5,316 bases of DNA from positions 1 through 5,316 of the IMG/VR virus record IMGVR_UViG_2671180903_000019. One strand, 5' to 3'. Position 1 is the stretch's first letter. Every line of letters begins with the position of its first letter. Below the pieces are notes generated by a model. It worked only from the letters and a program-made list of their open reading frames with translations. It did not search any database and was not told where the DNA came from. The translations under genes and the position numbers were made by a program. This document shows positions 4,539 to 4,575 of the stretch, piece after piece. The stretch is from a virus. Its lineage: Duplodnaviria > Heunggongvirae > Uroviricota > Caudoviricetes.

Positions 4539-4558
4539 TTTCATTCCCGGCACAGATA

Positions 4559-4575
4559 AGAATAAGTCTTATTCT
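4559..4575. promoter_or_regulatory. Perfect 17-bp palindrome AGAATAAG-T-CTTATTCT upstream of the lipoprotein gene; operator candidate with Fur-box-like hexamers
   Basis: The 8-bp arms are exact reverse complements around a central T. With flanks (GATAAGAATAAGTCTTATT, 4555-4573) it matches 13 of 19 positions of the Fur box consensus GATAATGATAATCATTATC. It sits 21-37 bp upstream of the probable start codon. Confidence 0.4.

What the first reader, a model, noticed from the sequence alone, without database searches (positions are those of the whole stretch)
4555..4575. Perfect 17-bp palindrome with Fur-box-like hexamers directly upstream of the TonB-like lipoprotein gene
AGAATAAG-T-CTTATTCT is an exact inverted repeat, and with its flanks it reads as GATAAG/AATAAG/CTTATT hexamers matching 13 of 19 Fur box positions. 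If this is a Fur operator, the TonB-domain lipoprotein would be derepressed under iron limitation, exactly when host TonB-dependent receptors are most abundant. That would be coherent regulatory logic for a receptor-blocking moron. A 13/19 match is within the range of real sites but also reachable by chance in AT-rich DNA, so this is a hypothesis.
Basis: inference. Interest (0 to 1): 0.55.

Follow-up and report, generated by a model that had tools for sequence, protein, structure and literature searches.

The report
Likely Fur operator on prophage gene
The palindrome lies on the predicted promoter of a prophage gene for a small TonB-like lipoprotein and is most likely a binding site for the iron-sensing repressor Fur, so the gene would switch on only when the host is starved of iron; this rests on sequence comparison, not experiment.

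Summary
AGAATAAG-T-CTTATTCT is a perfect 8-1-8 palindrome at 4559-4575, 20 nt upstream of the ATG (4538) of a 108-aa TonB_C lipoprotein gene on the minus strand.

Neither the palindrome nor the 13/19 consensus match is significant alone: 8% and 49% of simulated windows reach them.

Three independent tests support the Fur reading:
- **Weight matrix.** A Fur matrix built from 24 E. coli K-12 sites scores 15.1 bits at 4555-4573. This is the best hit in the window; known sites score 9.4-25.7. A 6.4-bit partner lies 6 bp away.
- **Position.** The box starts inside a predicted extended -10 element (TGtTAGAAT, 4579-4571) and covers the predicted transcription start.
- **Comparison.** Thirteen of 18 homologous genes (11 of 14 lineages: Serratia, Klebsiella, Raoultella, Erwinia, Pantoea, Gibbsiella, Sodalis; chromosomal and prophage) carry a box of at least 13.8 bits within 60 nt of the start, often in the same register. 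None of 62 neighbouring genes reaches 9.8 bits.

The best Fur register is offset 3 bp from the palindrome centre. The phage 21 allele has lost the box. Fur binding, iron response and the lipoprotein's function were not tested. I rate it a new member of a known kind, of moderate interest.

The parts
4559..4575 (.).
   Evidence: Read directly. Confirmed as a perfect 8-arm palindrome, and as the only match with up to 3 mismatches.
4555..4573 (-). Predicted main Fur box. It is 19 bp, centred at 4564, and reads AATAAGACTTATTCTTATC in gene orientation.
   Evidence: Scores 15.1 bits with the 24-site PWM and 13.0 bits with the PWM built only from 10 experimentally supported sites. It is the top hit in the window with both. 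Orthologous promoters carry their box in the same register.
4561..4579 (-). Second, weaker Fur-like site, 6 bp upstream of the main box and centred at 4570
   Evidence: Scores 6.4 bits. The 6-bp spacing is the cluster pattern described for real Fur sites (PMC2189734).
4571..4579 (-). Predicted extended -10 promoter element TGtTAGAAT. The -10 hexamer is 4576..4571. The implied transcription start is about 4563-4565, inside the Fur box.
   Evidence: Found by the promoter scan (TG before the second hexamer). The block is conserved in the orthologue alignment. The transcription start is inferred, not mapped.
4593..4598 (-). Weak candidate -35 hexamer ATGACC
   Evidence: It varies among E. coli copies (ATGGCC, ATGATC, ATGCCC), so it is probably unimportant beside an extended -10.
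4545..4548 (-). Shine-Dalgarno-like GGGA, 6 nt before the ATG at 4538
   Evidence: Sequence. A GGA block is conserved in the orthologue alignment.
4212..4538 (-). Regulated gene: a 108-aa lipoprotein (signal peptide plus LVMG-C lipobox) made of a TonB C-terminal domain
   Evidence: Pfam TonB_C E=5.5e-15. It is 40% identical to E. coli TonB residues 153-230. It matches solved TonB C-terminal-domain structures at E about 1e-16. A near-identical prophage copy is annotated by PGAP as 'TonB family protein'. The lipobox Cys is invariant in the family alignment.
4527..4545 (-). Additional Fur-like site over the start codon, centred at 4536
   Evidence: Scores 10.0 bits and 8.7 bits with the 10-site PWM. 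It may only reflect A-rich codons, so its significance is uncertain.

Best explanation
The palindrome is part of a Fur operator laid over the gene's own sigma-70 promoter.

The promoter is an extended -10 element (TGtTAGAAT, 4579-4571). The 19-bp Fur box (4573-4555) begins at the fourth base of the -10 hexamer and runs to about +10. A weaker site lies 6 bp upstream.

When iron is plentiful, Fe(II)-Fur dimers occupy the box and keep RNA polymerase off the -10 element and the start site. This silences the gene in the lysogen. When iron is scarce, Fur leaves and a short-leader mRNA of about 26 nt is made.

The product is a lipoprotein predicted to be anchored in the outer membrane, because it has no Asp at position +2. 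It consists of little more than a TonB C-terminal domain. During lytic growth the gene would also be read through from the late promoter, independently of Fur.

Shown: the sequence, the PWM score, the position relative to a predicted promoter, and conservation of box and register across the family. Inferred: Fur binding, repression, the transcription start, and lipoprotein sorting. Speculative: the protein docks on the TonB boxes of Fur-co-regulated outer-membrane transporters and interferes with TonB-dependent entry of phages and colicins, or tunes iron uptake.
For: PWM:
- The matrix was built from 24 K-12 sites at the coordinates of Chen et al. 2007, Table 4 (PMC2189734).
- Leave-one-out scores of those sites are 9.4-25.7 bits. 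The window site scores 15.1 bits and is the best of 5,298 positions.
- The per-position probability of reaching 15 bits is 2.5e-6 with uniform composition and 9e-5 at 70% AT. Only 1% of simulated windows reach 15.1 bits.
- The matrix from experimentally supported sites only gives 13.0 bits, still the top hit.

Position: the box overlaps an extended -10 element.

Comparison:
- Boxes of 13.8-26.5 bits lie within 60 nt of the start in 13 of 18 homologue loci, or 11 of 14 lineages.
- Only 0.47% of 845 control windows from the same loci reach 13.8 bits (binomial P about 1e-23).
- None of 62 upstream regions of neighbouring genes reaches 9.8 bits.
- In alignment A4 the only conserved upstream block is the -10 element, the Fur box and the Shine-Dalgarno sequence, and the window sits in the same register.

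Within E. coli:
- The 61-nt promoter region is at least 99% identical in 341 of the 398 genomes that carry it, including EDL933.
- A C-to-T variant in 5 of 80 copies breaks the perfect palindrome yet keeps the Fur score at 15.2 bits.

Precedent: strong Fur sites exist in the neighbouring region of lambdoid prophages (Qin nohA, gel-shifted, and DLP12 nohB).
Against: - There are no binding, expression or transcription-start data for this site. Eight literature searches found none.
- The site is weaker than most orthologous boxes: 15 bits against a typical 18-26.
- It is weaker than the median validated K-12 site, which scores 20.5 bits.
- The exact symmetry centre (4567) scores only 0.8 bits, so Fur does not explain why the palindrome is perfect.
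- The phage 21 allele, about as abundant in the protein database (368 versus 395 cluster members), lacks the right half of the box through a 13-nt gap and scores below zero.
- Two Erwinia loci (one lineage, L006/L109) and L104 also lack a box. Fur control is therefore dispensable in some lineages.
- Polymorphism inside the box (2 variable positions in 25 nt) is not clearly lower than in the flanks.
- The promoter is only a consensus match.
Confidence: 0.72

Rival explanations
1. It is a decayed or chance Fur-like sequence that no longer binds Fur usefully. The gene would then be expressed constitutively from its promoter, or only from the late transcript, and the palindrome would be incidental AT-rich symmetry.
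For: - The palindrome and the 13/19 match are each reachable by chance.
- The site scores 3-11 bits below most orthologous boxes.
- The phage 21 allele, the two Erwinia loci (one lineage) and L104 show that the box can be lost while the gene persists.
Against: - Its 15.1 bits exceed experimentally supported weak sites such as feoA, which score 9.4-11.9 here.
- It also exceeds the published values for the tonB and fur sites, 11.5 and 12.3 bits (PMC2189734).
- It is the best hit in the window and lies exactly where the orthologues keep their boxes.
- It is invariant in 74 of 80 IMG/VR copies.
- The 61-nt promoter region is at least 99% identical in 341 of the 398 complete E. coli genomes that carry it.
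Confidence: 0.15
2. The exact 8-1-8 palindrome is the operator of a different dimeric regulator, host- or phage-encoded, that has replaced or joined Fur at this promoter.
For: - The symmetry is perfect over 17 bp and centred at 4567, where the Fur matrix gives only 0.8 bits.
- Perfection beyond what Fur needs is unexplained.
- The element overlaps the -10 element, as repressor operators do.
Against: - There is no second copy in the window, even with 3 mismatches.
- A variant that breaks the symmetry persists in 5 of 80 copies.
- Orthologues carry canonical Fur boxes, not this palindrome.
- The shifted symmetry follows naturally from the hexamer-repeat structure of Fur boxes, whose sites overlap at 3- and 6-bp spacings (PMC2189734).
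- By my own inspection the spacing does not fit ArgR, CRP, FNR, LexA or Zur. I ran no matrix for these.
Confidence: 0.07
3. The palindrome acts as an RNA hairpin in the leader of a longer transcript, namely late-operon read-through. It would affect stability, processing or translation.
For: - The gene lies on the late-transcript strand, between the lysis and packaging genes.
- The region can fold into a 7-bp AU stem flanked by GGCAU/GUGCC.
Against: - The minimum free energy is -14.2 kcal/mol against -11.3 +/- 2.4 for shuffles (z = -1.2; 22 of 200 shuffles fold as well).
- The hairpin does not include the Shine-Dalgarno sequence.
- It is not followed by a T-run, and the terminator scan found nothing here.
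- Rfam gave no hit.
- Orthologues conserve the Fur-box sequence, not the pairing.
Confidence: 0.05

Closest known systems
Fur boxes at Fur-repressed E. coli promoters (for example fecA AATAAGAATTATTTTCCTT, ryhB, tonB, feoA)
   Same: It is a 19-bp 9-1-9 / hexamer-repeat AT-rich operator. It has a 6-bp-spaced secondary site and overlaps the -10 element and the start site. Its left half-site, ATAAGAAT on the + strand, is the same as the fecA half-site.
   Different: The target gene is new, and K-12 has no copy in the regions I examined. The score is in the lower-middle of the validated range. It carries an extra, exact 8-1-8 symmetry offset by 3 bp from the best Fur register.
Cos-proximal Fur box of lambda-like prophages (Qin nohA and DLP12 nohB/nohD in K-12; also phage 21)
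   Same: It is a Fur site in the same part of a lambdoid genome, between the lysis and packaging modules. Binding at nohA was shown by gel shift (PMC2189734).
   Different: That site (TGATAAT-G/A-ATTATCA, 22-25 bits) lies in the ynfO/ylcI-Nu1 intergenic region and is not homologous to this one. The window's packaging module is of the HNH/TerS/TerL type and has no such site.
Phage superinfection-exclusion lipoproteins Llp (T5) and Cor (phi80/N15), which inactivate FhuA
   Same: All are small phage-encoded lipoproteins of the inner leaflet of the outer membrane that act on a TonB-dependent receptor from the periplasmic side (Llp: abstracts listed).
   Different: No homology was detected: the Pfam scan returned only TonB_C and TonB_2, and PADLOC returned nothing. 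No exclusion phenotype is known for this protein. It has chromosomal, non-phage orthologues.
TonB C-terminal domain (E. coli TonB 153-239; complexes 2GRX with FhuA and 2GSK with BtuB)
   Same: It is 40% identical over 78 residues that cover the whole folded domain. In the FhuA complex, TonB strand beta3 pairs with the TonB box (PMC11658791).
   Different: It has no N-terminal membrane anchor and no proline-rich spacer. Instead it has a lipoprotein signal peptide, so it cannot couple to ExbBD and cannot be a functional TonB.
Lambda bor and other lambdoid 'morons' next to the lysis cassette
   Same: It is a single lipoprotein gene with its own promoter, inserted between the lysis and packaging genes, and is present or absent among otherwise near-identical phages.
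   Different: It lies on the same strand as the late operon, and no terminator was detected downstream. Its predicted control is by a host metalloregulator.

Membership tests
Fur operator (Fur box) | Sequence scores within the range of validated Fur sites under a weight matrix | tested here: met
   15.1 bits with the 24-site PWM and 13.0 bits with the 10-site PWM. Known sites score 9.4-25.7 by leave-one-out. About 1% of simulated windows reach this score anywhere.
Fur operator (Fur box) | Architecture: 9-1-9 / F-F-x-R hexamer arrangement with overlapping sites at 6-bp spacing | tested here: met
   GATAAG-AATAAG-T-CTTATT. Sites at 4564 (15.1 bits) and 4570 (6.4 bits) are 6 bp apart. This is the pattern described in PMC2189734.
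Fur operator (Fur box) | Overlaps the core promoter of the regulated gene | tested here: inconclusive
   The box overlaps a predicted extended -10 element, TGtTAGAAT, and orthologues share the register. The promoter and transcription start are predictions only.
Fur operator (Fur box) | Site conserved upstream of orthologues (regulon-level conservation) | tested here: met
   13 of 18 loci, or 11 of 14 lineages, have a box of at least 13.8 bits. Control windows reach this in 0.47% of cases, and 0 of 62 neighbouring genes reach 9.8 bits.
Fur operator (Fur box) | Metal-dependent Fur binding, and iron- or fur-dependent transcription | not testable with these tools
   No data were found in the searchable literature. 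The CFT073 Fur ChIP peaks I checked (c1255, c1601) lie beside iroB and sitA, not beside this gene.
Lambdoid moron | Autonomous gene cassette, present or absent between conserved phage modules | tested here: met
   Many Stx phages share 4683-4950 at 93-97% identity but lack the TonB-like gene. The cassette is roughly 4229-4682.
Lambdoid moron | Own promoter and own terminator | tested here: inconclusive
   A promoter-like site was found. No intrinsic terminator was found downstream of 4212.
TonB (energy transducer) | C-terminal TonB_C domain | tested here: met
   Pfam TonB_C E=5.5e-15, TIGR01352, and solved TonB C-terminal-domain structures at E about 1e-16.
TonB (energy transducer) | N-terminal transmembrane anchor with the SHLS motif, and a Pro-rich periplasmic spacer | tested here: not met
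   The protein is 108 aa. Residues 1-18 are a lipoprotein signal peptide ending in a lipobox Cys. It scores 49-73 bits against the five NF0080xx 'TonB system transport protein TonB' equivalog models, whose cut-offs are 265-448 bits. It is not a TonB orthologue.
Llp/Cor-type exclusion lipoproteins | Sequence homology to Llp or Cor | tested here: not met
   The Pfam scan returned only TonB_C and TonB_2. PHROGs placed it in phrog_1267, labelled 'Rz-like spanin'. PADLOC returned nothing.
Llp/Cor-type exclusion lipoproteins | Blocks a TonB-dependent receptor and excludes phages | not testable with these tools
   This needs infection and colicin assays and binding studies.

The most novel reading that the evidence does not exclude
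A family of Fur-derepressed TonB C-terminal domains, predicted to be tethered to the outer membrane, acts as a decoy on the TonB boxes of outer-membrane transporters. The family is chromosomal in several Enterobacterales and has been captured by lambdoid prophages, including prophages of O157:H7. At the moment iron starvation makes those receptors abundant, the decoy would shut the TonB-dependent entry route of rival phages, colicins and microcins, or would throttle iron uptake. That would be an iron-gated mode of superinfection exclusion working by mimicry of a host energy transducer.
Probability: 0.25. Interest if true: 0.75.

Novelty: new member of a known kind. Interest (0 to 1): 0.5.

Why it matters
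If the site works as predicted, 398 of 5,426 complete E. coli genomes, among them EDL933 and other Shiga-toxin-producing strains (O157:H7, O145, O111, O55:H7), carry a prophage gene wired into the host iron-starvation regulon.

The product is a free TonB C-terminal domain on a lipid anchor. Soluble periplasmic TonB C-terminal fragments are known to inhibit TonB-dependent transport (my own recollection of Howard et al. 2001, not checked here). An iron-gated version could therefore change sensitivity to TonB-dependent phages and colicins, or siderophore uptake, in the iron-poor gut.

The comparison also adds a conserved, unnamed member to the Fur regulon of Serratia, Klebsiella, Erwinia, Pantoea and relatives. 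The hypothesis can be tested with a gel shift and one reporter fusion.

Tried and rejected
- **Classical consensus counting.** The 13/19 match is not informative: four such positions occur in the window and 49% of simulated windows have one.
- **Palindrome statistics.** 8% of simulated windows contain a perfect 8-1-8 palindrome.
- **Rfam.** A scan of the whole window gave only two sub-threshold chance hits elsewhere.
- **RNA hairpin.** z = -1.2, not distinguishable from shuffles.
- **K-12 nohA/nohB Fur sites.** I checked whether they are the same element. They are not: they lie near cos, upstream of ynfO/ylcI, in a Nu1-type packaging module that the window lacks.
- **CFT073 Fur ChIP-seq peaks at 'hypothetical' c1255 and c1601.** I checked them as possible hits to this gene. 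They lie beside iroB and sitA.
- **IMG/VR scan.** It returned only copies 98-100% identical, useful for polymorphism but not for diversity.
- **Single-sequence protein search.** It reached only E. coli alleles. A profile of seven homologues was needed to find the wider family.
- **P0010 as a possible intermediate allele.** It proved to be the phage 21 type with a C-terminal frameshift.
- **Literature.** Searches for Fur or iron regulation of this gene, or for characterised TonB-CTD lipoproteins, found nothing relevant.
- **PHROGs label 'Rz-like spanin'.** I judged it a probable mislabel, because the protein is a TonB_C domain and the window already carries an Rz gene.
- **Other regulators (ArgR, CRP, FNR, LexA, Zur).** I rejected these by inspecting half-sites and spacing only; no matrices were run.

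Full report
**What is there.** The window is a truncated lambdoid prophage of E. coli. On the minus strand it carries, in order:
- the 3' end of an Rz gene (5286-5098);
- a 74-aa ORF (5101-4877);
- a 108-aa gene (4538-4212);
- an HNH endonuclease gene (3838-3473);
- terS (3184-2621);
- a terL gene whose homology to intact prophages stops at 1500/1501.

A YlcI/YnfO-family gene lies on the plus strand at 3880-4080.

The 108-aa product has a lipoprotein signal peptide (MKRNLPLIILLSSLVMG-C) followed by a TonB C-terminal domain:
- Pfam TonB_C scores E=5.5e-15.
- It is 40% identical to E. coli TonB residues 153-230.
- It matches solved TonB C-terminal-domain structures at E about 1e-16, including the chains bound to FhuA and BtuB.

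It lacks the membrane anchor and proline-rich spacer of a real TonB and falls far below the NCBIfam TonB equivalog cut-offs.

The cassette is an insertion. Many Stx phages share 4683-4950 at 93-97% identity but have no TonB-like gene.

**Checking the observation.** AGAATAAGTCTTATTCT is at 4559-4575 and is a perfect 8-1-8 inverted repeat. GATAAG-AATAAG-T-CTTATT at 4555-4573 matches 13 of 19 positions of the classical Fur consensus. Neither fact is significant alone:
- 8% of composition-matched simulated windows contain a perfect 8-1-8 palindrome.
- Four window positions reach 13/19, and 49% of simulated windows have at least one such match.

**Promoter context.** A consensus scan finds a minus-strand promoter-like site with an extended -10 element, TGtTAGAAT (4579-4571), and a poor -35 hexamer, ATGACC (4598-4593). 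The -35 hexamer varies among E. coli copies, which fits a promoter that relies on its extended -10. The implied transcription start is about 4563-4565. That gives a leader of about 26 nt with GGGA 6 nt before the ATG. The palindrome therefore covers the -10 hexamer and the start point, which is the classical position of a repressor operator. The promoter and the start are predictions.

**Weight-matrix test.** Chen et al. 2007 (PMC2189734) list coordinates of footprinted, gel-shifted and strongly predicted Fur sites in K-12.
- I fetched ten K-12 regions and converted the coordinates. The needed offsets of +777, +1976, +1978 and +1977 match known differences between the two genome versions.
- I extracted 24 sites in the 9-1-9 register AATGATAATnATTATCATT and built a symmetric PWM.
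- Leave-one-out scores of the known sites run from 9.4 to 25.7 bits, with a median of 20.5.

The best hit in the whole window is 15.1 bits at 4555-4573 (centre 4564). A 6.4-bit site lies 6 bp away (centre 4570), and a 10.0-bit site lies over the start codon. The 6-bp spacing is the cluster pattern those authors describe.

The chance of 15 bits or more is 2.5e-6 per position at uniform composition and 9e-5 at 70% AT. Only 1% of simulated windows reach 15.1 bits anywhere, and 0.24% of 120-nt upstream-like regions do. A stricter PWM from the ten experimentally supported sites still ranks this site first, at 13.0 bits.

The exact symmetry centre of the palindrome (4567) scores only 0.8 bits. The Fur register is offset by 3 bp from it. 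Such offsets are expected from the hexamer-repeat nature of Fur boxes, but this means Fur does not explain why the palindrome is perfect.

**Comparative test, the strongest evidence.** A profile search found a family of roughly 110-aa TonB_C lipoproteins across Enterobacterales. I obtained 18 loci from 14 lineages.
- Some are in prophages: Klebsiella and Raoultella (L005 by near-identity of its upstream region to the Klebsiella phage locus L004) and Erwinia S38.
- Many are in ordinary chromosomal contexts: Serratia, Gibbsiella, Pantoea, Klebsiella B345 and Erwinia P7711.

Thirteen loci (11 lineages) have a Fur box of 13.8-26.5 bits within 60 nt upstream of the start codon. In most of these loci it is the only site above 8 bits, and in nearly all it is the strongest. 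Controls are clean:
- Only 0.47% of 845 same-size windows elsewhere in these loci reach 13.8 bits (binomial P about 1e-23 for 11 of 14).
- None of 62 upstream regions of neighbouring genes reaches even 9.8 bits.

In an alignment of the upstream regions, the only conserved block is the -10 hexamer, the Fur box and the Shine-Dalgarno sequence. Everything further upstream is unalignable. In seven loci, the window included, the box begins at the fourth base of the -10 hexamer, for example TAG[AAT... and TAT[AAT.... The window's site is therefore a diverged copy of an ancestral, positionally conserved Fur operator.

**Variation within E. coli.**
- The 61-nt promoter region occurs in 398 of 5,426 complete genomes and is at least 99% identical in 341 of them, including O157:H7 EDL933.
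- Among 80 IMG/VR copies, the 24-nt core is invariant in 74.
- Five copies carry a C-to-T change that destroys the perfect palindrome but leaves the Fur score at 15.2 bits. One copy carries a T-to-G change that lowers it to 8.7 bits.
- The second common E. coli allele, the phage 21 type (71% protein identity), keeps the left arm but has a 13-nt gap that removes the right half of the box, and scores below zero.
- Two Erwinia loci of one lineage (L006/L109) and locus L104 also lack a box. The two Erwinia loci show what looks like a decayed relic.

Fur control is thus common and ancestral in this family, but not obligatory.

**Most likely mechanism.**
- With iron, Fe(II)-Fur binds 4555-4579 and occludes the extended -10 element and the start site. 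This keeps the lipoprotein gene off in the lysogen.
- Under iron limitation the promoter fires.
- During lytic growth the gene would also be transcribed by read-through of the late operon.
- The family has no Asp at position +2 after the lipobox Cys. This predicts sorting to the outer membrane, an inference from the Lol-avoidance rule.

The function of the protein is unknown. A free TonB C-terminal domain could dock on TonB boxes as TonB strand beta3 does (PMC11658791) and compete with TonB. That would fit co-regulation with the Fur-controlled receptors. This step is speculation.

**Rivals.**
- A relic or chance site is possible, because the site is weaker than most orthologous boxes and other alleles have lost it. 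Against that, it outscores weak but experimentally supported sites and sits exactly in the conserved register.
- A different regulator that recognises the exact palindrome is not excluded. However, there is no second copy, a natural variant that breaks the symmetry persists, and the orthologues carry Fur boxes rather than this palindrome.
- An RNA hairpin is weakly supported at best (z = -1.2, Shine-Dalgarno sequence not included, no T-run).

**Novelty and limits.** A Fur box is a thoroughly known kind of element. What is new, as far as the searchable literature shows, is this target: a conserved TonB-CTD lipoprotein family and its prophage copies in Shiga-toxin-producing strains. Everything here is computational. 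No binding, expression or 5'-end data were available. The PWM is my reconstruction from published coordinates, not the authors' matrix.

Noticed in passing
window 3255-3383: A cluster of GTTAAC-core repeats lies between the HNH gene and terS. CAGTTAACAT(T/G)T occurs three times in direct orientation, with inverted partners. The cluster includes a perfect 18-bp palindrome, CAGTTAACATGTTAACTG, at 3365-3382. This is possibly a cos or TerS-binding region, or an operator.
   Followed up: partly
window 1-1500 (junction at 1500/1501): Homology to intact prophages stops inside terL at 1500/1501, so the prophage is truncated. The flanking DNA carries a DinI-like gene at 526-774 (Pfam DinI, 5.8e-15) and an ORF whose unique part is 979-1500, with no match in Pfam or NCBIfam. 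CCCCATTGATG occurs twice in tandem at 417-438.
   Followed up: partly
L012 about 2094-2108 (K-12 Qin), L013 about 4095-4109 (K-12 DLP12), L002 about 43 (phage 21), L116 4036: Lambda-type prophages carry a near-perfect Fur box, TGATAAT(G/A)ATTATCA, of 22-25 bits near cos. It lies about 150 bp upstream of ynfO/ylcI and about 230 bp upstream of the Nu1 homologue. It is known from Chen 2007 (gel shift for nohA). Its purpose in phage biology is unexplained. The window's ylcI-like gene (3880-4080) has no such site.
   Followed up: partly
window 4683-4950: A segment of about 270 bp is 93-97% identical in many Stx1, Stx2a and Stx2c phages that lack the TonB-like gene. It comprises the 3' part of the 74-aa ORF plus GC-rich non-coding sequence. 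It has no Rfam hit and its function is unknown.
   Followed up: no
window 4212-4538 (protein): PHROGs places this TonB_C lipoprotein in phrog_1267, labelled 'Rz-like spanin' in the lysis category. This is probably an annotation artefact of its lipoprotein nature and its position next to the lysis genes. It could propagate into phage annotations.
   Followed up: partly
window 4185-4203: A 9.3-bit Fur-like site, AGTGATAATTAATTTCTGA, lies just downstream of the stop codon of the lipoprotein gene. It is probably chance.
   Followed up: no
L008 about 3167-3185 (Sodalis sp. RH21): A near-consensus Fur box, AATGATAATCATTATCATT (29.8 bits), lies 1.7 kb downstream of the Sodalis homologue. Another Fur-regulated gene probably lies next to it. 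I did not examine it.
   Followed up: no
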